Origin: Roseovarius sp.
GTDB taxonomy: Bacteria > Pseudomonadota > Alphaproteobacteria > Rhodobacterales > Rhodobacteraceae
NCBI RefSeq assembly: GCF_048262375.1
Contig: NZ_JBLXFE010000017.1
Span: 581-64,580, forward strand
Length of the DNA stretch: 64,000 nt
Direction: 5' to 3'
Part shown: piece after piece, positions 36,035 to 61,510 of the stretch
How the letters are laid out: the number at the start of each line of letters is the position of its first letter
Position numbering within the stretch: position 1 is the stretch's first letter
Translations under genes and position numbers: made by a program
The notes under the pieces: model-generated
Seen by the model: only the letters and a program-made list of their open reading frames with translations
What the model was told of the DNA's origin: nothing
The model's database searches: none

Positions 36035-37705
36035 GTGCAACAACCCAATATTCTTCTCTTCATTCTCCAAGTGGCTGGCGCGGCTTCGCTGCTCATTTGG
36101 TCCGTGCGTCTTGTGCGGACCGGGGTGGAACGTGGGTTCTCCGTGCAATTACGGCAATGGCTTCGCCGGTCGTCCAAGAGCCGACTCTTGGCGATGTCCA
36201 CCGGAACCGGGACGGCTATTTTCCTGCAAAGTTCGACCGCTGTCGCGATCATGGTGTCGAATTTCGTATCCAAGGGCAGTATTTCCACTCTGGTCGGGCT
36301 CGCAATTTTGCTGGGCGCGGATCTGGGTTCGGCGATTGTCGCGCAGTTGCTCTTGGTCCGGCAGACGTTTTTGGTACCGTTGCTCTTGGTGGTCGGTGTC
36401 GCCCTGTTTTTACGCAGTGAGCATGGGCGCACGCGCAAAATGGGCCGTATACTGATAGGGCTATCGCTCATTTTCGTATCTCTGGACATGATCCGCAGTG
36501 CGGCAACCCCCCTGATCGACAGTCCCGGCACTGTTGCGGCCATGCAGTATCTTGGCAACGATCTTATGGCGGCATTCGCAATCGGGGCGGTCTTTGCGTG
36601 GGCGGTGCATTCCAGCGTTGCGGCGATCTTGCTGTTTGTGACCCTTGTGGCGCAGGGCTTGCTGCCCGCGACAGGGGCGGCAGCGATGGTGCTTGGCGCC
36701 AATCTCGGTGGTGCATTCATCGCCTATATTCTGACGCTGTCGTCGCCCGTTCCCGCCCGTCAGATGGTGGTGGCAAACCTTGTGCTTCGCGGCGGTGGCG
36801 CGGCTGTGGTGCTGATCATGTTTTCGCGTCTGGATGATCCTCTGTCATGGCTCGGGACCAGCCCGAGCCAGCAGACGATTAACCTTCACCTCGCGTTCAA
36901 TTTTTGCTTGGCGCTGGTGGCGATGCCCTTTCTTGGTCCGTTCGCGCGGTTGGCGGAAACCTTCTTGCCGGACCGGCCTGACCCTCTTGCTGAAATGGAG
37001 GGGGCCACTGCGCTTGAAACAACCGCCATTGATAATCCTCGCAGTGCGCTGACCGCTTCAGCGCGCGAAGTTCTGCACATCGGCGAGATGATCGAAACGA
37101 TGTTGCGCGCAACCGGGCCGCTGTTTCACCGATGGGATGATGGAACGGCAGACGCGATCAGAAAGAAGGACGCTCAGGTCAAGAATAGACATCAAAAGCT
37201 GAAACTCTTCCTTGCACAGATGAACCGTGGTGGGCTCGATGAGGACAACAGTCGAAAATTACATGAACTTGCCAACATAGCGGCCAATCTTGAGGCCGCG
37301 TCTGACTCGATTTCCCGTAATCTGACCGACCTGGCCAGAAGGTTGAACGCAGAAGGGGTGACGTTTTCTGAACAGGGTAGCCAAGAGATCAGCGATTTTC
37401 ATGACCGCGTCCTGACCAATGTGCAACTTGGCCTCAATGTCCTCATGACACAGAATCCGGATGCAGCCCGCGAGCTTGTCGCGGCAAAGGAGAAAGTTCG
37501 TTCGGTTGAACAAAACCTCCAACGCGAGCACCTTGGGCGGTTGCGGCAGGGATTGGTCGAAAGCATCGAGACAAGCAGCATTCACCAAGAAACGTTGAGA
37601 GTGCTCAAGCAGATCAACACCTCGTTCTCTATAATCGGTTACCCAATCCTGTCTGAGACAGGGGATTTGCTGGCAAGCAGGCTGGCACGTGAAGACGTCA
37701 AATAA
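36035..37705 (+). CDS. Na/Pi cotransporter family (NptA/YjbB-like) with C-terminal PhoU-like domain
   Basis: Two repeats (LQSSTA...LGADLG and VHSSVA...LGANLG), helical C-terminus (ETSSIHQETLRVLKQIN). Confidence 0.9.
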   Translation: MQQPNILLFILQVAGAASLLIWSVRLVRTGVERGFSVQLRQWLRRSSKSRLLAMSTGTGTAIFLQSSTAVAIMVSNFVSKGSISTLVGLAILLGADLGSAIVAQLLLVRQTFLVPLLLVVGVALFLRSEHGRTRKMGRILIGLSLIFVSLDMIRSAATPLIDSPGTVAAMQYLGNDLMAAFAIGAVFAWAVHSSVAAILLFVTLVAQGLLPATGAAAMVLGANLGGAFIAYILTLSSPVPARQMVVANLVLRGGGAAVVLIMFSRLDDPLSWLGTSPSQQTINLHLAFNFCLALVAMPFLGPFARLAETFLPDRPDPLAEMEGATALETTAIDNPRSALTASAREVLHIGEMIETMLRATGPLFHRWDDGTADAIRKKDAQVKNRHQKLKLFLAQMNRGGLDEDNSRKLHELANIAANLEAASDSISRNLTDLARRLNAEGVTFSEQGSQEISDFHDRVLTNVQLGLNVLMTQNPDAARELVAAKEKVRSVEQNLQREHLGRLRQGLVESIETSSIHQETLRVLKQINTSFSIIGYPILSETGDLLASRLAREDVK

Positions 37706-38636
37706 TTGCACTGTCTGATAAAAAAGTGGCGTGCGGGGCATAACGGCTGACATGGCGGTCAGAACGGCCTCATGTCCGAGCGAACTCCGGGTTTGCAGGG
37801 CGCGGGGTCACTATGGGTGATCAGTGGCGCGTGTGCAGGTCAGACAGGGGGGGCATGCAGAGGGCAGCATCGGCCGGGGTGATTCAGACAGTGCCGCGCA
37901 GGTGGCGCAAAAAGCACGCCGGGATCGCAGATTCAGCGTGTCTCGTGAACATGTTACGGCTTGGAAACCAATTGTTACATCAAGAGCGAGATGTTGCCGA
38001 CGTGGTTTTGCAAGGGTTTCGGGCGGCATTCCCCCGCCTCACACAAGGCGCAGCGGTACTGTTTTGGCAGAGAATGCGCAAGATGATCTGCGGCACTCTG
38101 CCGGGGCGGTTCGTGTGACGTCATCCTGAAAACTGGCCCTGATGCCATCCTTGGTCAGAGGGCTGCGGCCGTAAATCCCAGTTTCCGGGCGGCGATTGAG
38201 GGCGCAATGCCTCTGGCAGCTCCTTTAATCGTTGCATAGCAAGCTGTTTTAAAACCATTTTTTGTCAATCATTGCGAAAAATATCCGCAACCGGATATGA
38301 AATCCCGCACGGGCAGAGAACGTAACGATGCGTCGCATGGGTCTCGGCGTCCACCGCCATGTCCGCCGCGGTTTGGGAGAGGCAAAGCCGAAGCATCCAT
38401 TGCGGGTGCGACAATGGCGCTGGTGAACGCCTCGCACGGAAACTGCGAAACAATGTCCGATTGGATCGCGCCCAGCAGAATCGGGCCATTTTACGGCTCG
38501 GAATGGCCCATGCCCGACCTGTGCCACACTCTTGACGTGAAACGCTAGCTTGTGCCAGTAGAGGCCCAGTTACAATATACTTGGTATGACTAAGCTCAAA
38601 CCGAAAGCATTCGGAACCGAAATAAGGATAATTGAG

Positions 38637-40445
38637 ATGCAGGCGACAGGCAGTTCGCAACCCCTCGCGTTGCGGCGGGCAGACTTCCCGACTCTTATTG
38701 AGGCTCTCGACTATGCAGCCAAGGGTGAGACCGGGGTCAATTTCTATAACGCCCGCGGAGAACTGTACGCAAGCTCCACCTATGCCGATCTTCAGGCTGA
38801 TGTGATCGAACTTGCACATCGTCTTCTGAGCTTGGGTGTCGAGCCGGGTGGGCGGGTTGGCCTTGTTGCAGAAACCTCACCGCATTTCGTACGGTTCTTC
38901 TGGGCCTGCCAGTATGCCGGGCTTGTTCCGGTTCCGTTGCCCGCCACGATGCACATTGGGGGCCATGCGGGCTATGTCGCGCAATTGCGGGGGCTGATCC
39001 AAAACTGTGGTGCGACGGTTGCGATGGCCCCGACCGAGTGGATGAGCTTTCTTGAGGAAGCCACGGCAGGCTCTGATCTGACCTTTGTTGGCACGCCCGA
39101 GGATTTCGACAGTCTTGCGCCTTCGGCACAAGACCTGCCACCGGTATCGCCCGACAGCATCGCCTATATTCAATATACCTCGGGCAGCACCCGCTTTCCG
39201 CGCGGCGTGGTCATCGACCATGCGACCGTGCTCGCCAACATCAATGATATGGCGACCCACGGGCTCAAGATGAATGACCGGGATCGGTTTGGATCATGGC
39301 TGCCATTTTACCACGATATGGGCCTTGTCGCCTTTATCATGATGCCGATGGCCACTCAGCGTTCCGTCGATTTTCTGGGAACGCAGGATTTCGCCATGCG
39401 TCCGCGCAAATGGCTCGAGATGATGTCGACCAATCAGACAACCATCACCTCCGGACCTCCCTTTGGCTATGATCTCGCCGCGATGCGGGTGCGTCCGAGC
39501 GATGCCGAACAGTGGGATTTGAGCGCGCTGCGCGTTGCCTGCGTCGGTGCTGAAATGATCAATCCCGAGCCGCTGAAACGCTTTGCCGAAGCGCTCGCGC
39601 CGTCGGGGTTCAAATCGACCGCGTTTCTGCCCTGTTACGGCATGGCTGAATGTTCTCTTGGCATCAGCTTTGCCGGTCTGGATGAAGAGTTGAACATCGA
39701 CTATGTCGATGCGGAACAGATGCAGCAAGACAGCGTTGCCCAACCGCTCGATCCGCAGGACGCCGTCAAATCCAAGCGCCGCGTTGCGCGTTATGTGGAT
39801 TGCGGTGCGCTATTGCCCAGCTTTGAAGTGTCGGTTCGTGATGAAAACGGCACGCCGCTTCCTGAACGTCAGGCCGGGGTCATTCATCTGCGCGGTCCAA
39901 GCGTGATGAGCCGGTATTTCCAGGACGAGGCCACCACTCAGGAATGCCTGAGCGCGGATGGCTGGCTCGACACCGGCGATATTGGATACATGGCGGACGG
40001 GCGGCTGTTTTTGACCGGGCGTCAAAAGGACATGATCATCATCCACGGCCGTAACATCTGGCCCGAGGATCTGGAATATCTGGCAAAAACTCAGCCGGGC
40101 GTCAATTACACCGACGCCGCAGCCTTCTCGGTGCCCTCCGAAGTGGACCAGCAGGAAACGGCGGTTCTGGTGGTGCAATGCCGTGAGCGCGACGAGATCA
40201 AGCGCGCGCGTCTGAGCAAAACCATCGCGTCCTTGGTGCGCTCCGAATTCGGTATTGATTGCGTCATCGAACTGGTGCCGACACGCACGTTGCCCCGCAC
40301 ATCTTCGGGCAAGCTGGCACGGGCTCGGGCGCGGCTCGACTTCCTTGACAGACGCCGTGCCGCCAAAATCCAAGTCCAGCCGGAACCTATCGAAAGCCTG
40401 CCTGTAGAGCAGCAGGGCAGGGCGCCGATCCGTTACATCGCATGA
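38637..40445 (+). CDS. Fatty acyl-AMP ligase / acyl-ACP synthetase for sphingolipid synthesis (AasR-like)
   Basis: QYTSGSTRFPRGV, SWLPFYHDMG, CYGMAE, DTGDIG, GRQKDMIIIHGRNIWPEDLE and PRTSSGK. First gene of the aas-epimerase-acp-spt operon. ATG 38637 has an AAGGA RBS; the track start is 38586. Confidence 0.85.
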   Translation: MQATGSSQPLALRRADFPTLIEALDYAAKGETGVNFYNARGELYASSTYADLQADVIELAHRLLSLGVEPGGRVGLVAETSPHFVRFFWACQYAGLVPVPLPATMHIGGHAGYVAQLRGLIQNCGATVAMAPTEWMSFLEEATAGSDLTFVGTPEDFDSLAPSAQDLPPVSPDSIAYIQYTSGSTRFPRGVVIDHATVLANINDMATHGLKMNDRDRFGSWLPFYHDMGLVAFIMMPMATQRSVDFLGTQDFAMRPRKWLEMMSTNQTTITSGPPFGYDLAAMRVRPSDAEQWDLSALRVACVGAEMINPEPLKRFAEALAPSGFKSTAFLPCYGMAECSLGISFAGLDEELNIDYVDAEQMQQDSVAQPLDPQDAVKSKRRVARYVDCGALLPSFEVSVRDENGTPLPERQAGVIHLRGPSVMSRYFQDEATTQECLSADGWLDTGDIGYMADGRLFLTGRQKDMIIIHGRNIWPEDLEYLAKTQPGVNYTDAAAFSVPSEVDQQETAVLVVQCRERDEIKRARLSKTIASLVRSEFGIDCVIELVPTRTLPRTSSGKLARARARLDFLDRRRAAKIQVQPEPIESLPVEQQGRAPIRYIA

Positions 40446-41404
40446 ATGGACCCGTTGCGGTAACGGGTGCATCAGGCTTTGTCGGGCAGGCCCTGATCGG
40501 GCAGCTACTTGCTGCGGGTCGATCGGTGCGCGCGCTGGTTCACCGGCAGCCGCTGACAATCAGCCACCCGGATCTGGAAACGGTTACGGGTGGTTTGTCG
40601 GACGAGCGCGCCGTGGCGCGGTTGCTGGACGGGGCAGGGGCGGTGGTCCATGTCGCAGGACGGGTGCGTGGCCGCACCGATGCCGATTTTCTTGTGGTGA
40701 ATGCCAAGGGCGTGTCTACGGTCGCGCGGGCTGCATTGGCCTCTCAGTCCGTGACCCGGCTGATCCTGATTTCCTCATTGGCCGCGCGCGCGCCGCACCT
40801 GTCGCCCTACGCCGCCAGCAAACGCGCGGGCGAAGACCGGCTGTCGGCGGCAACCATGACCACAGATCTGTCCACGGCCGTATTGCGCCCGCCGGCAGTC
40901 TATGGTCCCGGTGACCGTGAACTGGTGCCGCTCTTTCTGATGATGGCGCGTGGCCTCAGTCCGATGCCAAGCGTACCGAATGCGCGCGCCTCATTGCTGC
41001 ATGTGGATGACCTTGCGCAAGCGATTGTCAAACTTCTGGACAGCACCGCGCAGGGTACTTATGAACTCCACGACGGGCATGGATTGGGGTATAGCTGGGA
41101 CGAGATTGCTACCATCGTCGAAGGCGTCGCAGGGCGGGGTCGCGGCTGGCGTTTCAGGATACCCGAGACCGCACTAAGATCCGTCGCCATGGTCAATATG
41201 CTTGGCGCGCGCCTGTTTGGGTACATGCCGATGCTGACACCCGGCAAGGTTAACGAATTACGCCATCCGGATTGGGTGTGCGACAACACCGAAATTAGCC
41301 GCGCCACAGGCTGGCAGCCGCTGATTCCTCTGGAGGACGGGCTATCTTCTTTGGTTAAGAGGGTGCCGTCGAAATCTGATAAGGGCATATCGAATGTCAC
41401 ATGA
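40442..41404 (+). CDS. NAD(P)-dependent extended SDR, CerR-like ceramide/3-keto reductase
   Basis: TGASGFVG, SSLAA, YAASK (YxxxK) and LRPPAVYGPGD. Overlaps aas upstream and acp downstream. Confidence 0.8.
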   Translation: MNGPVAVTGASGFVGQALIGQLLAAGRSVRALVHRQPLTISHPDLETVTGGLSDERAVARLLDGAGAVVHVAGRVRGRTDADFLVVNAKGVSTVARAALASQSVTRLILISSLAARAPHLSPYAASKRAGEDRLSAATMTTDLSTAVLRPPAVYGPGDRELVPLFLMMARGLSPMPSVPNARASLLHVDDLAQAIVKLLDSTAQGTYELHDGHGLGYSWDEIATIVEGVAGRGRGWRFRIPETALRSVAMVNMLGARLFGYMPMLTPGKVNELRHPDWVCDNTEISRATGWQPLIPLEDGLSSLVKRVPSKSDKGISNVT

Positions 41405-41660
41405 GACCCAAGACCTCGAACAAGAGATCATGCAGACGCTGTTTCAGCGCCTTGCCAAGTTTCCGATCAAATCTGGCGAATTGACCGCAGAAACAAGCCT
41501 TGTGGCCGATATGAGCCTCGACTCGATCAACATGATGGAACTGCTGATGGAGGTGGAAGACACCTTTGACGTCAGTTTCCCGTTGAACATGATGGCCAAT
41601 GTCACCACGGTCCAAAACCTCGCCGATCAAATCAAACAACTCGTTGAAAACAAATCATGA
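41394..41660 (+). CDS. Dedicated acyl carrier protein (AcpR-like)
   Basis: 88 aa acidic protein with LDSINMMEL (phosphopantetheine Ser) and FPLN. Stop overlaps the spt start. Confidence 0.9.
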   Translation: MSHETQDLEQEIMQTLFQRLAKFPIKSGELTAETSLVADMSLDSINMMELLMEVEDTFDVSFPLNMMANVTTVQNLADQIKQLVENKS

Positions 41661-42874
41661 GCATTTCAGAACGCTTCGCCGAACTGGCGCATCTGCGTGA
41701 CGCATTGGGCGCCGTCGAGGCAGACCCGAGCCGGATCGTCATGCAAAAAATCCTGTCCTCAACCGAGGCGGTGATTGGCAACCGTCCCACGATCCTCGTT
41801 GGCACCAACAACTATCTTGGCCTGACCTTTGATCCAACAGTCCTTGAGGCGGCCACGTTGGCCATGCACGAGCAGGGCAGTGGCACCACCGGATCGCGCA
41901 TGGCCAATGGCAGTTTTGCTGGCCATGCCGCTCTAGAGCGCGAATTTGCAGAGTTCTATGGCGTTCCGTCGGCCATGATCTTTTCAACCGGTTACCAGAC
42001 CAACCTTGGCCTTTTGATGGCCATTCTCCGACCGGGCGACAAGGTGGTTCTCGACTCCCACAGCCATGCCTGTATCTATGACGGCTGCCGCATCAGTGGC
42101 GCGGATTTTATGGCTTTCCGGCACAATGATCCCGACGATCTGCGCAAGCGGCTCAGACGCCTCGGAGCCGAGGCCAAAGGCGCGCTCGTGATTGCAGAGG
42201 GACTCTACAGCATGCTGGGTGACGTGGCCCCGCTGGCGGAACTCTGTGCCATTGCCAAGGAATACGGCGCATGGTTCATGGTCGATGAGGCCCATTCCTT
42301 TGGGGTTTATGGTGATAGGGGGCTGGGGCTCTGTGAAGAGGCTGGCATTCTGGATCAGGTCGATTTCATCACCGGCACATTCAGCAAGAGCCTTGCCTCT
42401 CTCGGCGGCTTCTGTGTGAGCCGCCATCCCGAGATGCAATTGCTACGCTATGGCAGCCGCCCGTATATCTTTACTGCCTCATCCAGCCCGGCCAACATCG
42501 CCGCCGCCGATGCCGCGCTCCGGGCGATCCGTACCCGGCCAGAGCTCAAGGCAAAGCTCTGGGCCAATGCCGAACGCCTCTATGACGGCCTGAAGGCCGC
42601 AGGCTATGAGCTGGCCGCCTCGGTCAGCCCGGTTATCGCGGTGCGCGTGCCATCAAGAGAAGAGGGTGCGCGGATATGGAACGCGCTTTTGGCCGAAGGT
42701 GTCTATGTCAATCTGGTATTGCCACCGGCAGCGCCCGAAGGTGAGGCGTTGCTCCGTTGCAGCATGAGTGCCGCGCATAGCTTTGAGCAGATCGACACGA
42801 TTGTGGCGGCGTTCAAGCATGTCTCGGCCAGTGCCGAAATCCCCACCACCAGCCAGAGTGCCGGCGCGCATTAG
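41657..42874 (+). CDS. spt: Serine palmitoyltransferase (bacterial homodimeric type)
   Basis: GTNNYLGLTFDP, GSGTTGSRMANG, FSTGYQTNLG, SHACIYDG, EGLYSMLGDVAPL, DEAHS, GTFSKS (PLP Lys), RPYIFTAS and YVNLVLPPAAPEG..LLRCS. Collinear with my recollection of Sphingomonas SPT, and adjacent to an ACP gene. Confidence 0.88.
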   Translation: MSISERFAELAHLRDALGAVEADPSRIVMQKILSSTEAVIGNRPTILVGTNNYLGLTFDPTVLEAATLAMHEQGSGTTGSRMANGSFAGHAALEREFAEFYGVPSAMIFSTGYQTNLGLLMAILRPGDKVVLDSHSHACIYDGCRISGADFMAFRHNDPDDLRKRLRRLGAEAKGALVIAEGLYSMLGDVAPLAELCAIAKEYGAWFMVDEAHSFGVYGDRGLGLCEEAGILDQVDFITGTFSKSLASLGGFCVSRHPEMQLLRYGSRPYIFTASSSPANIAAADAALRAIRTRPELKAKLWANAERLYDGLKAAGYELAASVSPVIAVRVPSREEGARIWNALLAEGVYVNLVLPPAAPEGEALLRCSMSAAHSFEQIDTIVAAFKHVSASAEIPTTSQSAGAH

Positions 42875-42912: not shown

Positions 42913-43890
42913 ATGACGGTAAGTATGGCAATGGCAATGCAGGCCCCCAAAGACCCCAAGTCGCGAGCAGGGGCAATGCTGGCGCATCTGTCGGACCCGC
43001 ACCTGCCGTTGTCCGGTGGCGTGCCGCTGCGCGCCGTGCTGAACAAGCGCCTGCTTGGCCTCTTGTCGTGGCATTTGAAACGGCACCGCCGCCATCGGCC
43101 TGAAACACTGACTCGGCTGATCGCAGACCTGCGGTGCCAGTCCCCTGATCTGATCGCGGTGACCGGGGATCTGACCAACCTTGGCCTGGACAGTGAATAC
43201 CGCGCGGCCCGCACTTGGCTAGAAGGGCTGGGCGATCCACGCCATGTCATGGTCATTCCCGGCAATCACGAGGCGCTGATTGACGGCGCCTGGGACCGTG
43301 GGGCGGCATCTTGGCAACCCTATTGGCAAGGCGATGAGGCCCTTCGGACCACGGATGTTGCACAGGCCTTTCCCGTCTTGCGCCGACGGGGCCCGCTGGC
43401 CCTGATTGGCACCTCAAGTGCCATTGCCACGCCCTTGGGGTTTGCCTCAGGCGAAATGGGCAAGGCTCAGCTTGATCGGCTTGCTGCCTTGCTACGGCGC
43501 ACCCGCAGCGAGGGGCTGTTTCGGGTGCTCATGATCCATCACCCACCGCTCGACGGGACGGTCGTGGCGCGCAAACATCTGCGCGACGGCGCAGCCCTCC
43601 GAGCCTTGCTGCAAACCGAGGGCGTCGAGCTGGTCCTGCATGGCCACAGCCACAGAAGCCATCAGCAGAGCTTGACAACGCGCGACGGGTCTGTGCCGGT
43701 GATCGGGGTTCCTTCGGCCTCTTCGATGCACCACGAGGCGGCGGCCTATAACCTTTACAATATTGTTCCTACAGATACGGGATGGAGCGTGACCCTCACA
43801 ACCCGACGTTTGGGCGAGGGTCAGAAAATGGAGACGGGTCGATGCGTCAGTTTGACAATACCGCGCCCGCACGCGGCATGCGCGTCATGA
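42913..43890 (+). CDS. Calcineurin-like metallophosphoesterase
   Basis: All five motifs are present: HLSDPH, TGDLTN, PGNHE, HHP and LHGHSH. Confidence 0.9.
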   Translation: MTVSMAMAMQAPKDPKSRAGAMLAHLSDPHLPLSGGVPLRAVLNKRLLGLLSWHLKRHRRHRPETLTRLIADLRCQSPDLIAVTGDLTNLGLDSEYRAARTWLEGLGDPRHVMVIPGNHEALIDGAWDRGAASWQPYWQGDEALRTTDVAQAFPVLRRRGPLALIGTSSAIATPLGFASGEMGKAQLDRLAALLRRTRSEGLFRVLMIHHPPLDGTVVARKHLRDGAALRALLQTEGVELVLHGHSHRSHQQSLTTRDGSVPVIGVPSASSMHHEAAAYNLYNIVPTDTGWSVTLTTRRLGEGQKMETGRCVSLTIPRPHAACAS

Positions 43891-44011
43891 CACGGCCCCT
43901 CGATACCGGTTCAAGACCGATTGCGGCAGGCAGTTTGACCGCATGCCGCAACTACAGGATAACTGTGCATCCGGTGCGCAATTCGTCCGACCAAGACACG
44001 AAAGTCCTCTC

Positions 44012-45715
44012 ATGCGTTTGATGCTGAACCTTTTCCGCGCCTATCCGATGGCCAGTTTCCTCATGGTGCTGGCCCTGTTCTTTTCGGGTTTGGCCGAGGG
44101 GCTGGGTGTTTCCGCGATGCTGCCCATGCTCAAGATCGCGCTCTATTCCGACCAGTCTGCGGCCACGGCGGAACCTCCGGGCGCGATGGAGCAGGTGGTG
44201 CTGGATGCCCTCGCTTGGGCCGGAATTCCCGCCACGCTGGGTGCTTTGCTGATATTGATCGTGGTTGCGGCTTGTTTCAAGGCGGTCTTGCTCTTGGTCG
44301 CACAGCGTCAGGTCGGCTATACCGCCGCGCAGGTCGGAACCGATCTGCGGCTGCAAATCCTGCGCAACATGATGCGCAGCCGCTGGCACTTTTTCCTGCA
44401 CCAGCCGACGGGCAAGCTGACCAACGCGCTCGCAACCGAGGCACAACGCGCGGCAGATGGCTATATGTTCGGTGCCACTGCACTCACCTTCTTCATTCAG
44501 GCGCTTGTGTATGCCTCTGTCGCCGTTTTGATATCGTGGAAGGCGACACTGCTTAGCCTGATTGGCGGGATCGTGATCATCGGACTGTCGCATTTTCTGG
44601 TGCGCATGACCCGCAAGGCGGGCAAGAAACAAACCGATCTGATGGTCTCGTTGATGTCGCATCTGACAGACACCCTGCAATCGGTCAAACCGCTCAAGGC
44701 AATGGCGCGTGAACATCTCGCGGATGAATTGCTGAAGCACGAGACCAACCGGCTGAACAAGGCGCTGCGCCGTCAGGTGCTGGCAAGTGCCGCTCTCAAT
44801 TCCGGTCAGGACCTGATGTTCGTGATGATCATCGCCTTTGGCGTTTATCTGGCCTTGGGCGTCCTCTCGATGGATTTTGCCACCGTGCTCATTCTTGCGG
44901 TGACCTTGGGGCGGGCCTACAATTTTTTAGGCAAGGTTCAAAAACAGTATCAGAAACTCGTCCAATGTGAGAGCGCCTATTGGTCGCTGAAGGAAACCAA
45001 CAGCCGCGCTGAAGCCGAACAAGAGCACCTTGGCGGGCATATAGCACCCGCGCTGAATACCGGAATATCGCTGCGCGACATCGCATTTTCCTATGACGGG
45101 CATTCGGTGTTTGCCGGTCTCGAACTAGACATTCCGGCGCATCAGATCACCACGCTGGTTGGCCCTTCGGGTTCTGGCAAAACCACGGTTATTGATCTTG
45201 TCATCGGTCTGTTGCGGCCCGGTGGCGGGGAAATCACCGTGGATGGCGTTCCGTTTGAGGAAATAGACCTTAAGGCGTGGCGGCGGATGGTGGGATATGT
45301 GCCACAAGAAACCGTGTTGCTCCACGACAGCATCCTTCACAATGTCTCGCTTGGGGACCCCAAGATTTCGACGGCGCGGGTCGAGCAAGCCTTGAAAAAG
45401 GCCGGGGCATGGGAGTTCGTGAACGATCTGCCCGAGGGCGTTCATACTGTAGTCGGAGAACGCGGCGGACGGCTATCCGGTGGACAGCGTCAAAGGGTTG
45501 CCATTGCACGCGCCTTGATCAACGAGCCGCAACTTCTGATCCTTGATGAGGCCACCAGCGCCCTCGATCCAGAGAGCGAGGCCGCAATCATCGAGACCCT
45601 GCGCGCGCTCCGCGAACACCTCACGATCCTTGCGATCACGCATAACAGTAGCCTCTCGGACGCGGCGGATATCGTGCACCGTCTTGCCCCTTCGGCGGGG
45701 ATCAGGGCTGGGTAA
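44012..45715 (+). CDS. ABC exporter half-transporter (TMD+NBD), MsbA/PglK-like lipid or glycolipid flippase
   Basis: Six-TM N-terminal half; GPSGSGKT, LSGGQRQR and LILDEATSALD. Start at ATG 44012 (MRLMLNLFRAYP). Confidence 0.88.
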   Translation: MRLMLNLFRAYPMASFLMVLALFFSGLAEGLGVSAMLPMLKIALYSDQSAATAEPPGAMEQVVLDALAWAGIPATLGALLILIVVAACFKAVLLLVAQRQVGYTAAQVGTDLRLQILRNMMRSRWHFFLHQPTGKLTNALATEAQRAADGYMFGATALTFFIQALVYASVAVLISWKATLLSLIGGIVIIGLSHFLVRMTRKAGKKQTDLMVSLMSHLTDTLQSVKPLKAMAREHLADELLKHETNRLNKALRRQVLASAALNSGQDLMFVMIIAFGVYLALGVLSMDFATVLILAVTLGRAYNFLGKVQKQYQKLVQCESAYWSLKETNSRAEAEQEHLGGHIAPALNTGISLRDIAFSYDGHSVFAGLELDIPAHQITTLVGPSGSGKTTVIDLVIGLLRPGGGEITVDGVPFEEIDLKAWRRMVGYVPQETVLLHDSILHNVSLGDPKISTARVEQALKKAGAWEFVNDLPEGVHTVVGERGGRLSGGQRQRVAIARALINEPQLLILDEATSALDPESEAAIIETLRALREHLTILAITHNSSLSDAADIVHRLAPSAGIRAG

Positions 45716-46880
45716 TCGGCTCTGAGGCCAGCGTCTGCGCGCCCTCCTCGGGCGGCGCCAACCCCATGAGCGCATTGATCCGCGCGACGGCGCGCGCCAT
45801 GTCGCTTGGCGGTGGCGTCCCTTGGGGCGCCGCCACCGGCTCTCCCAGCCAGTTCATTCTGCCCGAACGCACCAGCCTGAGATGCATCTGGCTGATATCG
45901 CGTGACAGATGTTTCCAACCCCATCGCATCAGCCCCCGGTATGCCAAGGCGCCAAGGGTCAAATCGGGCCGGTCCGTGTCCTGTCGGCGCAGGGCCTCCG
46001 CCTGTTGCGTCTCTCCGAGCGCCAACAGCGTATCGCGGCGCATGCTGAAAGAGCCCGCGCTCAGATCGAACATATGCACGGGTTTCCCGGTGGCATAGGC
46101 CTCTGACAACATCGAGATGCTGTCGGCCGTCACGATGATCTCATCGGCGAGGGCGAGAAACCCGAGATAGGGGTTATCTGGATCACCGGGTGTCCAGCGA
46201 TACAGATGCATGGGCACCTCTTGCTGCGCGGCAAAGGCGTCAATCGCTTGGTGCGGGGTTCGCGCGCTCGAGCTGACCAAGAGCGATCCACCACGCTTGC
46301 GCGCCAGATCCAGCGTATCGCGCAAGAGCCGCTGCGCCGCCCGTGAACCAAAGGCATAGGGGCCGCTTGATCCACCGATATTCACGGTCAGATAGGGCCG
46401 CGGCAGATGGGCAAGATCTTGGGCCCAGCGGGCCTTGGCCTCGGCCAGACGACGCGGTCCCAGCGGATGCAGGGGCAGGGCGTTGCGCAGAACATTCGGC
46501 CCGTCGGGGACCCGGTATTGCGGTGTGGTGATCACCAGATCGAACAGCGCTGGATCGGCCCACAGACGTCCCAGAAACACCAGCCGGGTGCGACCGCCCG
46601 ATTGATCGCGGATCCACCGGCACACAGGTTCGTTGCGCATTGCCATGGACAGCACAAGATCGGGCCATGGCGGCGCAAGCGCATCAGAGGCCGGCACATC
46701 GATGCCCCGCAGATCCTTGCCGCGCAACAGGTTGGTGCGCATCTCGAATTTGCGGTATTTGAGGGTTTTGATCTCATAGGGCCAACCCAGCCCGTCGGCC
46801 AAGGCGCGCAATTGGGTTTTCTCGCCCGATCTGTAGGCATCCACCACCCAGACACGCGGGCTCATTATTGGCTCAGACAT
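45702..46880 (-). CDS. ELM1/GtrOC1-family putative glycosyltransferase (paralog 1)
   Basis: RSGEKTQLRALADGLG, AMRNEP, ITTPQY, IGGSSG, SSSARTP, NPYLGFLALADEIIVTADSISMLSEA. Confidence 0.8.
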   Translation of the reverse strand: MSEPIMSPRVWVVDAYRSGEKTQLRALADGLGWPYEIKTLKYRKFEMRTNLLRGKDLRGIDVPASDALAPPWPDLVLSMAMRNEPVCRWIRDQSGGRTRLVFLGRLWADPALFDLVITTPQYRVPDGPNVLRNALPLHPLGPRRLAEAKARWAQDLAHLPRPYLTVNIGGSSGPYAFGSRAAQRLLRDTLDLARKRGGSLLVSSSARTPHQAIDAFAAQQEVPMHLYRWTPGDPDNPYLGFLALADEIIVTADSISMLSEAYATGKPVHMFDLSAGSFSMRRDTLLALGETQQAEALRRQDTDRPDLTLGALAYRGLMRWGWKHLSRDISQMHLRLVRSGRMNWLGEPVAAPQGTPPPSDMARAVARINALMGLAPPEEGAQTLASEPITQP

Positions 46881-59545: not shown

Positions 59546-61510
59546 TCACAGCCTGTTGGACAGCGGCCCCGCCAACGCAGCCGCAATTGTTGGTCCGAAC
59601 AGATGCTCGCCGCAGGGGCTCAGATGGTCCACATCCCAGAATGTCAGACAGTCCTGCTGCACCAGCGTATCCGCGTCAAACGCCAGCGCGTCAAACAGCG
59701 AAACGTAGCGATAGGCTGACTGGTCAGCCGCCAGCGCCTTGATCTCGTCTTCCAGCAGCGAAAAGTGATCAAGCGCGACCGGGTTGAACCGCAAACGATC
59801 CGGGCTGTAGTTTTCCGGGTTGTTGAGATCCAGACGCGCCTCGGCAAATGGGCCAAGCCACACCACGTCCAACTCCTCGTGAAACTTGGCAAGATATTCC
59901 GAAGTTTTCGCGATATTGTCTTGCGCAAAGCGCGCTCTGACGCCTGTCTCGAACGCCGCATCACTGTCGCCCTCATTGCGATGATCTAGGATGTAATGCG
60001 ATCCGGAGACGTGAAAAATCACTTGAGAGATGGCGGCGCGGTGCTGTTCCAGAAACGGCACTACCGCATCATAAGAGCATTTGGCCTTGTGCTGATAGGG
60101 GCGGCACCCGCCGCGCGTGAGGCCCACAAGAAACGGCAGACGTTCGGTGCTCCGCAGCGCGTTATAGATGTTCTCGGCATGGGAATCGCCCAGCACGAAC
60201 ACCGCTGGCCCGTGTTCCGCAGCGCAGGTTTCCAGCCGACTGGTAAAGTCATCATCCAGCTCTTCGGCCCGGAACCGGCATCCATCATCCGCAACACGGG
60301 ATCTGGTGGCCTGCGGGCTGAACTGTTCGAAATTGGCGCGCGCCGCCGCATCAAGCCTGTGCTCAAGATAAAAGGCGCGGAAACCCTCGGTTTGCAGGCC
60401 TGTCAGCCCGATACCGCCCAGAATCGCCATGCAGAGCGCCGCCGCCCCAAAAAGACGGCGCGGCGCTAGATCATGCATACGCCGAAACGGTCGCTCGACA
60501 TAGCGCCAGCTCAGACAGGCGATCACAAAGGCCAACACGCAGACGCCGAACAACAGCGTCGCATCATCGCGCCCGGTTCCGATCCGGGTAAACACCAAGA
60601 GCGGCACATGCCACAGATAAAGCGAGTAGCTGACCAGTCCGACAAAGACCACCGGACGCCAGCCAAGGATCTGGCCCGCAAGGCTCTGGGGGGTGGCAAA
60701 GGCGATGATCAGAACCGCGCCCAAGCAGGGCAAAAGCGCCGCCACCCCCGGAAACGCGGTCTCGTTGTCATAGGCAAAGACCGCCGTCAGGATCATTGCC
60801 AACCCCAACAATGCGGCAAGGCGAAAGCGTCCGCTGTCGCGCAGGTCCGTGCCACGCGCGCTGGTCAGCCAATAGGCCGTGAGCGCCCCCGCCATCAGCT
60901 CCCAGAGCCGCGTGTGCAGCAGGAAAAACGCGCGCGCACCCTCGCCGCGCCCAATATGCCACTGTGCAAATCCAAGACTGACAAGCGCGAGCGCAAAAAA
61001 CAGGGCCGCCTGACCCTTTGGTCCCGCCCGCCAGCTCAGCAGCACCGCCATTGGAAAGAGCAGATAGAACTGTTCCTCGACCGAGAGGCTCCAATTGTGC
61101 AAAAGCGGCTTCAACTCGGCTGCTGTCGCGAAATATCCGCTCACCTCCAGAAAATAGGTATTCGCAAAGAACACCGTCGAGGCCGCGATACTGCCCGAAA
61201 ACTCCTTCATCGCCGAAGGATCAAGCAAGGCCCAAGCGATTGGATAACTCACCGCCATCATCACAAACAGCGCCGGAAAGATCCGGCGAATCCGACGGCC
61301 ATAGAATCCGGTCAGGGTGAAATTACCGGCCCGCCGCTCGCTCAGGATAATCGAGGTGATGAGATAGCCGGAAATGACAAAGAACACGTCTACCCCGACA
61401 AACCCACCGGGAAAGCCCGCAATCCCGGCATGGTATAGCACCACGGGCAGGATCGCGATCGCGCGCAGACCATCGACTTCGGGCCTGTATTTCATCATCG
61501 TAATGCTCAT
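59546..61510 (-). CDS. OafA-type O-acyltransferase (Acyltransferase_3 TM domain plus periplasmic SGNH domain)
   Basis: YRPEVDGLRAIA, GGFVGVDVFFVISGYLI, HNWSLSVEEQFY, SYSLYLWH; SGNH motifs LGDSHA and DVDHLS. Confidence 0.92.
   Translation of the reverse strand: MSITMMKYRPEVDGLRAIAILPVVLYHAGIAGFPGGFVGVDVFFVISGYLITSIILSERRAGNFTLTGFYGRRIRRIFPALFVMMAVSYPIAWALLDPSAMKEFSGSIAASTVFFANTYFLEVSGYFATAAELKPLLHNWSLSVEEQFYLLFPMAVLLSWRAGPKGQAALFFALALVSLGFAQWHIGRGEGARAFFLLHTRLWELMAGALTAYWLTSARGTDLRDSGRFRLAALLGLAMILTAVFAYDNETAFPGVAALLPCLGAVLIIAFATPQSLAGQILGWRPVVFVGLVSYSLYLWHVPLLVFTRIGTGRDDATLLFGVCVLAFVIACLSWRYVERPFRRMHDLAPRRLFGAAALCMAILGGIGLTGLQTEGFRAFYLEHRLDAAARANFEQFSPQATRSRVADDGCRFRAEELDDDFTSRLETCAAEHGPAVFVLGDSHAENIYNALRSTERLPFLVGLTRGGCRPYQHKAKCSYDAVVPFLEQHRAAISQVIFHVSGSHYILDHRNEGDSDAAFETGVRARFAQDNIAKTSEYLAKFHEELDVVWLGPFAEARLDLNNPENYSPDRLRFNPVALDHFSLLEDEIKALAADQSAYRYVSLFDALAFDADTLVQQDCLTFWDVDHLSPCGEHLFGPTIAAALAGPLSNRL

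What the first reader, a model, noticed from the sequence alone, without database searches (positions are those of the whole stretch)
42913..45715. Phosphoesterase and MsbA-like exporter co-transcribed with spt: candidate dedicated sphingolipid flippase
Both genes follow spt on the same strand. How bacterial sphingolipids cross the inner membrane is poorly understood. No LptF/G-like genes are visible in this cluster, which has a TMD+NBD type-IV exporter instead. The calcineurin-like enzyme could remove a phosphate from a head-group intermediate.
Basis: inference. Interest (0 to 1): 0.55.

Follow-up and report, generated by a model that had tools for sequence, protein, structure and literature searches.

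The report
Sphingolipid-island ABC exporter and phosphoesterase
Two genes right after the sphingolipid starter gene of a marine Roseovarius, already named RccE and RccF in print, encode a phosphodiesterase-type enzyme and an ABC exporter that is the best candidate for moving the cell's sphingolipid across the inner membrane in a bacterium that has lost the early lipid A genes.

Summary
A 325-aa metallophosphoesterase (42913-43890) and a TMD-NBD ABC exporter follow spt on the + strand. The exporter's start is better placed at 44012 (567 aa) than at 43943.

The pair is already published as RccE and RccF of the Roseovarius roseoceramide cluster (Ganley & Seyedsayamdost 2025), with function untested. 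This scan has also flagged lptF-lptG-ABC operons in other genomes.

Findings added here:
- RccF is not MsbA. It scores 250 bits against a 602 cut-off and sits in a clade apart from E. coli MsbA.
- Gammaproteobacterial relatives carry it as spt-MPE-lptF2-lptG2-ABC or as lptF2-lptG2-ABC.
- In 61 Roseovarius genomes, the 11 with this island type all lack LpxC, and each of the ten RccF-positive ones keeps one LptFG pair.
- Five LpxC+ genomes carry a diverged spt. Both such loci inspected hold LptF2G2 and a Wzx-type candidate flippase, with no ABC and no RccE.
- The genome holds a second RccF copy (77% identity).
- RccE falls in the sphingolipid-locus phosphoesterase group, probably with Caulobacter CC_1158. 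It usually sits beside cerK/cpgC and lptF2G2, and it folds like phosphodiesterases.

The flippase reading is supported but indirect: more distant family members lie in polysaccharide-type loci of spt-less genomes. I rate it a new member of a known kind, of moderate interest.

The parts
38586..40445 (+). Fatty acyl-AMP ligase (AasR/RccA-type), first gene of the same-strand run
   Evidence: PF00501 at 194 bits and NF006624 at 732 bits (above the 600 cut-off). Overlaps the next gene by 4 nt.
40442..41404 (+). CerR-like NAD(P)-dependent reductase
   Evidence: PF01370 at 91 bits. Collinear in all Roseovarius and Thiohalobacter islands.
41394..41660 (+). Dedicated acyl carrier protein
   Evidence: PF00550 at 42 bits.
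41657..42874 (+). Serine palmitoyltransferase (Spt/RccD)
   Evidence: NF047599 at 580 bits, above the 500 cut-off.
42913..43890 (+). RccE: cytoplasmic calcineurin-like metallophosphoesterase with a conserved basic amphipathic helix (residues 45-60)
   Evidence: PF00149 at 62 bits. D28, H30, D86, N118, H119, H209, H210, H243 and H245 are invariant in 60 homologues. The AF2 model has pLDDT 93, and its top folds are Rv0805, GpdQ, Lmo2642, SMPDL3A/B and ASMase. No N-terminal hydrophobic segment is visible.
43891..44011 (+). RccE-RccF spacer. In Thiohalobacter-type islands this position holds lptF2-lptG2.
   Evidence: The spacer is not conserved among four Roseovarius islands except for the GAAAG motif before the ATG at 44012. 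L094 has LptF and LptG between the MPE and the ABC.
44012..45715 (+). RccF: type IV ABC exporter half-transporter (6 TM helices plus NBD). The longest ORF starts at 43943.
   Evidence: PF00664 plus PF00005. MsbA model TIGR02203 scores 250 bits against a 602 cut-off. The AF2 model has pLDDT 82, with TM-scores of 0.75-0.78 to MsbA and 0.75 to PglK. All ATPase motifs are present. It falls in a clade of 18 sphingolipid-locus ABCs separate from E. coli MsbA.
45702..46880 (-). ELM1-like (PF06258) gene convergent with rccF; the 3' ends overlap by 14 nt
   Evidence: PF06258 at 193 bits. The same tail-to-tail ABC/ELM1 arrangement occurs in G199, G198, L068, L094, L095 and L096, and the ends overlap in G199, L095 and L096.

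Best explanation
The two genes are RccE and RccF of the roseoceramide-type sphingolipid island.

RccF is a homodimeric, ATP-driven type IV ABC exporter in the inner membrane. It most likely takes the finished or nearly finished sphingolipid of this island from the cytoplasmic leaflet and delivers it to the periplasmic leaflet. That lipid would be a ceramide carrying the phospho-, glyco-, sulfo- and extra-acyl decorations encoded next door. The single housekeeping LptB2FG-LptD machine then carries it to the outer membrane. RccF therefore does for this lipid what MsbA does for lipid A, without being MsbA.

RccE is a soluble or peripherally membrane-bound metallophosphoesterase on the cytoplasmic side. 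It most likely cleaves a phosphodiester or pyrophosphate bond in a lipid-linked head-group intermediate made by the ceramide kinase / Tam41-like pair, before export.

Shown here: domain content, intact catalytic motifs, fold, paralogy, synteny and the phylogenetic profile. Inferred: the substrate, the direction of transport, the hand-over to Lpt and the reaction of RccE.
For: RccF architecture and fold:
- Pfam, PDB sequence and Foldseek results all give a type IV ABC exporter.
- All ATPase motifs are intact.

RccF is not MsbA:
- It scores 250 bits against the 602 cut-off.
- It shares 29% identity with E. coli MsbA and lies in a separate clade with SH-aLRT 100.
- Only one of the three basic residues that bind lipid A in MsbA is kept.

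Synteny:
- The whole 21-kb island is collinear in three other Roseovarius genomes and in Thiohalobacter.
- In Thiohalobacter sp. COW1 the order is spt-MPE-lptF-lptG-ABC.
- In two other gammaproteobacterial contigs, lptF-lptG-ABC sits next to ACP-spt.
- In Marinivivus the ABC lies in the same locus as MPE-lptF-lptG.
- In G235 and G418 the ABC abuts an lptF/lptG pair although spt is far away.

Host background:
- G000 has no LpxC by HMM and no LpxA/B/C/D by tblastn, while the FabZ control is found.
- It keeps one LptFG pair plus LptD.

Genus profile (61 genomes):
- The 11 genomes with this island type (Spt 76-88% identical) all lack LpxC. Ten of them show RccF, and the eleventh has spt at a contig end.
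- 49 of the 50 others have LpxC.
- All RccF+ genomes keep one LptFG pair with normal HMM scores.

Alternative flippase type:
- Both inspected sphingolipid loci of LpxC+ Roseovarius carry a Wzx-type PF01943 protein and LptF2G2 where the rcc islands carry the ABC.
- This is the same family as Caulobacter's proposed flippase CC_1166 (PMC11324152).
- G000 has no homologue of that Wzx type.

Published hint of essentiality: repeated attempts to delete rcc in R. tolerans failed (PMC11789144).

RccE:
- In a tree of 88 family members, sphingolipid-linked proteins make up everything except one nested Hyphomicrobiales clade.
- In the 40 sphingolipid-linked loci scored, cerK plus the Tam41-like gene usually lie next to it.
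- An lptF/lptG pair abuts it in 25 of those 40 loci.
- Caulobacter CC_1158, a calcineurin-like phosphoesterase in the equivalent position, shifts the CPG/CPG2 ratio when deleted (PMC11324152).
- The nearest folds are all phosphodiesterases.
Against: - There is no experiment, and no RNA data were available for this strain.
- The ABC family is not exclusive to sphingolipid producers. In a sample of 300 alphaproteobacteria, 8 of 18 carriers of a 33-44% identical member had no spt hit, and two of those genomes hold the gene among GT4 or WbqC-type polysaccharide genes.
- Among solved half-transporters, the best sequence match is PglK, a lipid-linked oligosaccharide flippase. The best NCBIfam model is HepA, a polysaccharide exporter.
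- Many sphingolipid loci have no such ABC within 10 kb: 28 of the 40 scored, and two of those 28 (L015, L019) have one just beyond the 10-kb flank. Such loci include those of LpxC+ Roseovarius, so the ABC is not a general requirement.
- The lipid A link is not strict outside the genus. A Thiohalobacter-like MAG, a Geobacter and a Tateyamaria carry an RccF-like gene and LpxC.
- G000 has other MsbA-like exporters that could flip lipids: L002 at 402 bits to the MsbA model, and an MsbA_rel member.
- The RccF+ Roseovarius genomes are kin, so the genus profile may reflect only one or two events.
- For RccE, a 45-member Hyphomicrobiales clade has no sphingolipid genes nearby. No direct sequence comparison with CC_1158 could be made.
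Confidence: 0.55

Rival explanations
1. RccF is a PglK/HepA-like exporter of a glycan or a polyprenyl-linked oligosaccharide. That glycan is attached to the lipid, or to the surface, outside the cytoplasm. RccF would then not be a flippase of the sphingolipid itself.
For: - Among solved half-transporters, the best sequence match is PglK (191 bits, against 173 for MsbA).
- The best NCBIfam model is HepA_fam_ABC.
- The model has a helix in the TM1-TM2 outer loop, where I recall PglK has its external helix.
- Family members at 37-44% identity sit among GT4 and WbqC-like genes in genomes with no spt hit.
- The island edge carries an AT3-SGNH acyltransferase. From my knowledge of OafA-type enzymes, this kind modifies glycans outside the cytoplasm.
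Against: - No priming phosphoglycosyl transferase, polymerase or ligase was seen among the island genes scanned.
- The sulfotransferase domains use PAPS and so should act in the cytoplasm (general knowledge), which points to a head group built on the lipid before export.
- The recurrent operon partner is lptF-lptG, a lipid extractor.
Confidence: 0.15
2. Another transporter flips the sphingolipid, for example the conserved MsbA-like paralogue L002, or flipping is unassisted. RccF would then export something else made by the island, such as free short-chain roseoceramides released to the medium, or would act as a general efflux pump.
For: - G000 keeps three other full-length exporters with better MsbA scores (480, 402 and 341 bits).
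- The roseoceramides described are free ceramides with a C14 base and short acyl chains, found as elicited metabolites (PMC11789144).
- The LpxC+ Roseovarius with diverged spt show no RccF, and neither of their two inspected sphingolipid loci holds an ABC.
Against: - L002-type and MsbA_rel paralogues are present in LpxC+ and LpxC- genomes alike, so they do not track the lipid.
- RccF tracks the island across classes, and tracks lptF2G2 in particular.
- A second copy is kept intact next to a ceramide-kinase-like gene and an LpxL-like gene.
Confidence: 0.12
3. RccE is a regulatory cyclic-nucleotide phosphodiesterase (CpdA/Rv0805 class) that tunes expression or activity of the pathway. It would not be a lipid-pathway enzyme.
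For: - The nearest sequence and fold matches are Rv0805 and GpdQ.
- Source databases name homologues CpdA.
- The PNAS authors treated RccE/RccF as possible predictors of regulation (PMC11789144).
- A large Hyphomicrobiales clade has no sphingolipid genes near it.
Against: - CpdA and SpdA models score 26-27 bits against cut-offs of 225 and 400.
- The gene is tightly placed between spt or cerK/cpgC and lptF2G2 in alpha-, gamma- and deltaproteobacterial loci.
- The Caulobacter CC_1158 mutant accumulates CPG and loses CPG2, and complementation reverses this (PMC11324152).
- The conserved basic amphipathic helix suggests a membrane interface (inference).
Confidence: 0.15

Closest known systems
RccE / RccF of the rcc (roseoceramide) cluster, Roseovarius tolerans EL-164 and R. 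mucosus DSM 17069 (Ganley & Seyedsayamdost, PNAS 2025, PMC11789144)
   Same: The gene order is the same: FAAL-CerR-ACP-Spt-phosphoesterase-ABC. A genome whose 4,170,996-bp contig matches the R. mucosus record has the collinear island, with RccF 85-87% and RccE 68% identical. The published annotations are 'putative phosphodiesterase' and 'putative MsbA-like transporter'.
   Different: The paper tested neither protein. It does not mention lipid A or the outer membrane. It delimits the cluster as the core genes, a transporter and a phosphodiesterase, whereas here the island runs on for about 15 kb of acyl-, glycosyl- and sulfotransferase genes. This genome also has a second RccF copy.
MsbA, the lipid A-core flippase (E. 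coli b0914; TIGR02203)
   Same: Both are half-transporters of 6 TM helices plus an NBD. MsbA structures are the best structural matches (TM-score 0.75-0.78). The proposed role, flipping an outer-membrane lipid ahead of LptB2FG, is the same.
   Different: Identity is 29%. The HMM score is 250 against a cut-off of 602. RccF lies in a separate clade. Residues equivalent to R148 and K299 are not basic. It is not linked to lpxK/waaA. The host lacks LpxA/B/C/D.
PglK, the lipid-linked oligosaccharide flippase of Campylobacter jejuni
   Same: PglK is the best-scoring solved half-transporter by sequence (191 bits). The fold matches at TM-score 0.75. The model has a helix in the TM1-TM2 outer loop.
   Different: The PglK model NF050066 scores 211 bits against a cut-off of 1000. 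No N-glycosylation or polyprenyl-pathway genes were seen in the island.
Caulobacter crescentus sphingolipid locus: CC_1166 (Wzx-type candidate flippase), LptF2/LptG2, CC_1158 phosphoesterase (PMC11324152; bioRxiv 10.64898/2026.04.12.717747)
   Same: It belongs to the same pathway context: spt, acp, cerR, FAAL, bCerS, cerK and cpgC. CC_1158 is a calcineurin-like phosphoesterase lying between the head-group genes and lptF2G2, the position RccE relatives take in 25 of 40 loci. A dedicated inner-membrane export step has been proposed there too.
   Different: The Caulobacter candidate flippase is a MOP/Wzx protein, not an ABC. Roseovarius rcc islands have no LptF2G2 and no Wzx-type protein. Direct sequence identity of RccE to CC_1158 was not measured.
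Class III metallophosphodiesterases Rv0805 / GpdQ / CpdA, and the acid sphingomyelinase-like SMPDL3 catalytic domain
   Same: RccE has the same dimetal phosphoesterase fold and motif set, and these are its top Foldseek matches (E 5e-13 to 1e-8).
   Different: Identity is only 11-24% and TM-scores are 0.5-0.66. RccE has a family-specific basic helix after the first motif. Family models for CpdA and SpdA are far below their cut-offs.

Membership tests
Type IV ABC exporter (ABCB-like half-transporter) | N-terminal transmembrane domain of six long helices (PF00664) | tested here: met
   PF00664 at 83 bits. The AF2 model shows long helices at 12-44, 76-122, 133-174, 176-223, 234-284 and 289-335.
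Type IV ABC exporter (ABCB-like half-transporter) | C-terminal NBD with Walker A, Q-loop, LSGGQ, Walker B plus catalytic Glu, and H-loop | tested here: met
   GPSGSGKT at 407, VPQ at 453, LSGGQ at 511, LLILDE at 531 and ITH at 565, in 590-aa numbering.
Type IV ABC exporter (ABCB-like half-transporter) | Fold superposes on solved exporters | tested here: met
   Foldseek gives TM-scores of 0.75-0.78 to MsbA, 0.76 to TmrAB and 0.75 to PglK.
MsbA (lipid A-core flippase, TIGR02203 equivalog) | Score at or above the curated cut-off of the equivalog model | tested here: not met
   250 bits against 602. No Roseovarius protein, from LpxC+ or LpxC- genomes, reaches the cut-off, so the model is strict for this genus.
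MsbA (lipid A-core flippase, TIGR02203 equivalog) | Groups with MsbA in a tree of exporters | tested here: not met
   RccF-type proteins form their own clade (SH-aLRT 100), away from E. coli MsbA and the host's other paralogues.
MsbA (lipid A-core flippase, TIGR02203 equivalog) | Basic ring that binds the lipid A phosphates (E. coli R78, R148, K299; recalled from the MsbA-LPS structure) | tested here: inconclusive
   Aligned residues in the RccF clade are K, then T or A, then variable. The TMD alignment is uncertain at 29% identity.
MsbA (lipid A-core flippase, TIGR02203 equivalog) | The host makes lipid A | tested here: not met
   The LpxC HMM finds nothing. LpxA/B/C/D are not found by tblastn, while FabZ, LpxK and WaaA-like are. 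The genome is 93% complete. Four other RccF+ genomes that are at least 99% complete also lack LpxC.
RccF (transporter of the published rcc cluster) | Lies directly downstream of the phosphoesterase in the FAAL-CerR-ACP-Spt run of a Roseovarius | tested here: met
   The arrangement is collinear with the island in the genome matching the R. mucosus record, with the ABC 85-87% identical.
Calcineurin-like metallophosphoesterase (PF00149) | Metal-binding motifs DxH, GD, GNH[DE], H and GHxH, and the beta-sandwich fold | tested here: met
   All ligand residues are invariant in 60 sequences. The model has pLDDT 93, and 280 PDB matches have E at or below 0.001.
Sphingolipid-locus phosphoesterase of the CC_1158 type | Encoded next to cerK/cpgC and/or lptF2-lptG2 in an spt locus | tested here: met
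   This is met for the family: 25 of 40 loci have lptF/G abutting, and most have cerK plus the Tam41-like gene adjacent. In the window itself the gene follows spt, and cerK/cpgC lie about 12 kb downstream.
Sphingolipid-locus phosphoesterase of the CC_1158 type | Sequence orthology to Caulobacter CC_1158 | not tested
Orthology rests on position and on the shared Pfam/InterPro family (PMC11324152, S1 Text).
Class III cyclic-nucleotide phosphodiesterase (CpdA / SpdA) | Score at or above the curated model cut-off | tested here: not met
   CpdA NF008359 scores 26 bits against 225, and SpdA NF050112 scores 27 bits against 400.
LpxH (UDP-diacylglucosamine pyrophosphatase) | Closest fold or sequence relative among metallophosphoesterases | tested here: not met
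   No LpxH entry appears among the 50 best Foldseek matches or among the PDB sequence hits.

The most novel reading that the evidence does not exclude
RccF is the missing inner-membrane flippase for complex bacterial sphingolipids, and an ABC-type alternative to the Wzx-type candidate of Caulobacter. This would mirror the two routes known for O-antigen export. In the Roseovarius lineage that has lost LpxA/B/C/D, RccF would be essential and would feed a sphingolipid, instead of LPS, into the unchanged LptB2FG-LptDE bridge. RccE would perform a last cytoplasmic head-group trimming step that makes the lipid ready for export.
Probability: 0.4. Interest if true: 0.7.

Novelty: new member of a known kind. 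Interest (0 to 1): 0.5.

Why it matters
How bacterial sphingolipids cross the inner membrane is an acknowledged gap. The 2024 and 2026 Caulobacter papers name only a Wzx-like candidate and the LptF2G2 extractor.

RccF gives a second, unrelated candidate, and it is present in cultured strains (R. mucosus, R. tolerans). In these strains the genome profile predicts no lipid A, so a sphingolipid probably carries the outer-membrane load. That makes the flipping step testable by depletion, membrane fractionation and reconstitution. It would also explain why the rcc cluster could not be deleted.

The genus offers a natural comparison. LPS-positive species have a Wzx-type protein plus LptF2G2. Species lacking the early lipid A genes have the ABC and only the housekeeping LptFG.

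Tried and rejected
- **RNA evidence for co-transcription.** No RNA holder was listed for window:41657-45715.
- **Promoter and terminator scan.** Counts equal those of shuffles, so the scan is uninformative.
- **Finding the true MsbA orthologue of the genus, and whether LpxC- genomes lost it.**
  - No Roseovarius protein reaches the TIGR02203 cut-off.
  - The neighbourhoods of the 400-bit paralogues in G155 and G000 hold no lipid A genes.
  - lpxK is not near any of these paralogues.
  - The question was left undecided.
- **Strict 'RccF if and only if no LpxC' rule outside the genus.** Rejected, because G218, G216 and G219 carry both.
- **'The RccF family is exclusive to sphingolipid producers'.** Rejected for members at 33-44% identity.
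- **RccE as an LpxH-like pyrophosphatase.** Not supported by the fold search.
- **A shared context for the Hyphomicrobiales RccE-like clade.** None was found; neighbours include TonB receptor, NUDIX, GNAT and MFS genes.
- **Remnants of lptF2/G2 in G000.** tblastn finds only weak hits (22-24% identity), to the housekeeping pair on C11.
- **The look-up of encoding contigs for P0076 and P0100.** These returned no record.


Full report
**What is there.** Between 38.6 and 45.7 kb the + strand carries seven genes in a tight run:
- a fatty acyl-AMP ligase (38586-40445);
- a CerR-like reductase (40442-41404);
- an acyl carrier protein (41394-41660);
- serine palmitoyltransferase (41657-42874; NF047599 at 580 bits, above the 500 cut-off);
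- a 325-aa calcineurin-like metallophosphoesterase (42913-43890);
- a fused TMD-NBD ABC exporter ending at 45715.

The first four genes overlap by 4-11 nt. The gap between spt and the phosphoesterase is 38 nt.

The exporter's longest ORF starts at 43943. The conserved start is the ATG at 44012, for three reasons. Gene callers give 567 aa. Homologues are mostly 564-581 aa. Four Roseovarius islands share a GAAAG motif 8-9 nt before this ATG, while the upstream extension is not conserved. With that start, the spacer after the phosphoesterase is 121 nt.

No terminator-like or promoter-like site lies in either junction, and the scan as a whole is no better than chance. No RNA run was available. Co-transcription is therefore plausible but not shown.

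The exporter's stop overlaps by 14 nt the stop of a convergent ELM1-like gene. Two LpxL-like acyltransferases, a fatty-acid hydroxylase, a bCerS-like GNAT, sulfotransferases, a ceramide-kinase-like DAGK protein and more ELM1 paralogues follow.

**Already in print.** Ganley and Seyedsayamdost (PNAS 2025, PMC11789144) defined the rcc cluster of Roseovarius tolerans. [quoted passage not shown]

They found 29 clusters with both genes in alpha-, beta-, gamma- and deltaproteobacteria, Nitrospirota, Thermodesulfobacteriota and NC10. They tested only Spt. They could not delete the cluster. They do not mention lipid A or the outer membrane.

A genome of the same genus has a 4,170,996-bp contig that matches the record of the R. 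mucosus homologue. It carries the whole island in the same order, with RccF 85-87% and RccE 68% identical to the window's proteins. The finding is therefore a further copy of a published gene pair. What remains open is the function.

**The exporter is not MsbA.** RccF has PF00664 plus PF00005, and every ATPase motif is intact. Its AF2 model (pLDDT 82) superposes on MsbA at TM-score 0.75-0.78, and about equally on TmrAB and PglK. It is therefore a competent type IV exporter.

Against the MsbA equivalog it scores 250 bits where 602 are required. Its best NCBIfam model is HepA-type, and its best solved half-transporter by sequence is PglK. The genome has five other full-length exporters:
- an MsbA_rel member (878 bits to TIGR02204);
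- two MsbA-like proteins, at 402 and 341 bits to the MsbA model;
- a PrtD-type secretion ATPase;
- a 77%-identical second copy of RccF on contig C6.

In a tree, 18 exporters taken from sphingolipid loci form one clade (SH-aLRT 100), away from E. coli MsbA and the host's other paralogues. Within that clade the Roseovarius proteins nest inside gammaproteobacterial ones, next to Thiohalobacter, which points to horizontal transfer of the island. Of the three basic residues that I recall holding the lipid A phosphates in E. coli MsbA, only the first is kept. The alignment is weak at this identity.

**Synteny is the main evidence for a lipid-export role.**
- In Thiohalobacter sp. COW1 the island matches the window gene for gene, but an lptF-lptG pair sits between the phosphoesterase and the ABC.
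- In two other gammaproteobacterial contigs, lptF-lptG-ABC form one run beside ELM1 and ACP-spt.
- In Marinivivus the locus reads spt, cpgC-like, cerK, then phosphoesterase-lptF-lptG-bCerS, with the ABC and an ELM1 gene a few kb on.
- In two alphaproteobacterial genomes whose spt lies far away, the ABC still abuts an lptF/lptG pair.

Island-encoded LptF2/LptG2 were recently shown to be needed for sphingolipid transport in Caulobacter, and that paper leaves the flipping step across the inner membrane unassigned. A transporter that repeatedly shares an operon with the extractor is the natural candidate for that step. Notes from this scan on other genomes describe the same lptF-lptG-ABC trio. My loci were found independently of them.

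**The host background strengthens the case.**
- The genome (93% complete) gives no LpxC hit. tblastn with the E. coli proteins finds no LpxA, LpxB, LpxC or LpxD, while FabZ, LpxK and a WaaA-like protein are found.
- It keeps a single LptF/LptG pair and LptD. That pair is only 22-24% identical to island-type LptF2/G2.
- Among 61 genomes of the genus, ten carry RccF and none of these has LpxC. Four of the ten are at least 99% complete.
- An eleventh LpxC-negative genome has the same spt type at a contig end.
- The twelfth LpxC-negative genome is 81% complete and carries neither gene.
- All RccF carriers keep one LptFG pair with normal scores.
- None of 150 other genera of the family had RccF.

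Five other Roseovarius genomes have a diverged spt (48-52% identity) and are all LpxC-positive and RccF-negative. Four of them have a second LptFG pair. In the two loci I opened, that pair sits with cerK and cpgC next to a Wzx-type PF01943 protein. These loci have no ABC and no RccE homologue.

PF01943 is the family of Caulobacter CC_1166, which Olea-Ozuna et al. proposed as the sphingolipid flippase. G000 has no homologue of that Wzx type. So within one genus the candidate-flippase slot is filled either by a Wzx-type protein or by the ABC.

**Limits.**
- Kin are not independent. The Roseovarius carriers fall into two island lineages, so the genus pattern may rest on one or two events.
- Outside the genus the link to lipid A loss is not strict. 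Marinivivus, a Halieaceae MAG, two Dongiaceae, a deltaproteobacterial MAG and an Aestuariivirga with an RccF-like gene lack LpxC. A Thiohalobacter-like MAG, a Geobacter and a Tateyamaria have both genes.
- In an even sample of 300 alphaproteobacteria, 18 carry a member at 33-44% identity. Ten of these have spt, against 39 of 300 overall, and eight do not. In two of the spt-less genomes the gene sits among GT4 or WbqC-type polysaccharide genes.
- The close clade (60% identity or more) is sphingolipid-bound in every locus seen, but the wider family exports other glycoconjugates.
- A glycan-export role therefore remains a live rival, as does flipping by one of the other MsbA-like paralogues.

**The phosphoesterase.**
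- RccE has all dimetal motifs, invariant in 60 homologues, and no signal peptide or membrane span.
- After the first motif it has a conserved basic amphipathic helix (residues 45-60). I read this as a membrane-interface element, which is inference.
- Its model (pLDDT 93) is closest to the phosphodiesterases Rv0805, GpdQ and Lmo2642, and then to SMPDL3A/B and acid sphingomyelinase. LpxH is not among the first 50 matches.
- CpdA and SpdA models score far below their cut-offs.

In 88 family members from genomes across phyla, proteins from sphingolipid loci make up the whole tree except one nested Hyphomicrobiales clade of 45. That clade has no sphingolipid genes within 10 kb and no common neighbours.

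In the 40 sphingolipid-linked loci scored, the usual neighbours are cerK plus the Tam41-like cpgC on one side and lptF-lptG on the other. The lptF-lptG pair abuts in 25 loci, and in 17 of them it lies directly downstream on the same strand. This is the position of Caulobacter CC_1158, a calcineurin-like phosphoesterase whose deletion raises CPG and lowers CPG2 and which is co-fit with the locus.

I therefore place RccE in the head-group pathway, acting at the cytoplasmic face before export, probably on a diester or pyrophosphate. I could not compare RccE with CC_1158 directly.

**Verdict.** RccF is a credible candidate for the sphingolipid flippase that is not an MsbA orthologue, especially in this lineage lacking the early lipid A genes. 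The pair is already named in the literature, the wider family is not sphingolipid-specific, and nothing has been tested at the bench. I rate it a new member of a known kind (MsbA/PglK-type lipid exporters), of moderate interest because it makes an acknowledged open question testable in cultured strains.

Noticed in passing
G000 contig C6:196707-201400 (locus L093:8702-13356), outside the window: There is a second, intact RccF copy (77% identical). It is convergent with an LpxL-like gene (58% to the island's LpxLb), which is preceded by a ceramide-kinase-like gene (66%). An Rrf2-family (iron-type) regulator lies directly beside the ABC. The identities match the other island lineage seen in G198 and G199, so this looks like a kept remnant of a second island. 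One other genome (G187) also has two copies.
   Followed up: partly
G000 contig C14:23553-25789 (locus L118:7553-9789), outside the window: An intact lpxK (PF02606, 310 bits) and a WaaA-like Kdo-transferase gene are kept side by side, although LpxA, LpxB, LpxC and LpxD are not found. Together with three LpxL-like genes, this means only late lipid A enzymes survive. LpxK six-frame scores are lower in two other LpxC-negative Roseovarius (170 and 140 bits, against 326-338 in LpxC+ genomes). LpxK is absent from the LpxC-negative Marinivivus, Halieaceae and Dongia genomes.
   Followed up: partly
window 45702-45715; also L095, L096 and the G199 island: The 3' ends of rccF and the convergent ELM1-like gene overlap by 14 nt here. 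They also overlap in G199, L095 and L096, which leaves no room for terminators between the two units.
   Followed up: partly
L095:14324-15574 and L096:14510-15766: In two gammaproteobacterial islands, an EPSP-synthase-family (enolpyruvyl-transferase-like) gene lies between spt and the phosphoesterase. This hints at a different head-group chemistry.
   Followed up: no
Loci L020-L089 (Bradyrhizobium, Afipia, Xanthobacter, Stappiaceae): A clade of 45 RccE-like phosphoesterases (41-47% identical) has no sphingolipid genes within 10 kb and no shared neighbours. Its role is unknown.
   Followed up: partly
G162:C1:116000-150000 (L124, L125) and G151:C80:160000-195000 (L126, L127): LpxC-positive Roseovarius species carry a different, Caulobacter-like sphingolipid locus. 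Its order is bCerS, lptF2-lptG2-cerK-cpgC, then spt-cerR-FAAL, with a Wzx-type PF01943 gene and no ABC or RccE. The genus therefore holds two unrelated sphingolipid systems.
   Followed up: partly
window 59546-61510 (- strand): An AT3-SGNH fused acyltransferase sits at the far edge of the island. From my knowledge of OafA-type enzymes, these O-acetylate glycans outside the cytoplasm, so a periplasmic finishing step on the exported lipid is possible.
   Followed up: no
window 36035-37705 (+ strand): A Na/Pi cotransporter with a PhoU domain lies just upstream of the island. A link to phosphate supply was not examined.
   Followed up: no
G222:C189:19771-23137 (locus L106), beside locus L019: Two divergently oriented RccF-like genes (37-38% identical to RccF) lie next to a Dongiaceae-type sphingolipid locus in an LpxC-negative MAG labelled Terriglobia. 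They could be a heterodimer pair, and the MAG may be mis-binned.
   Followed up: no
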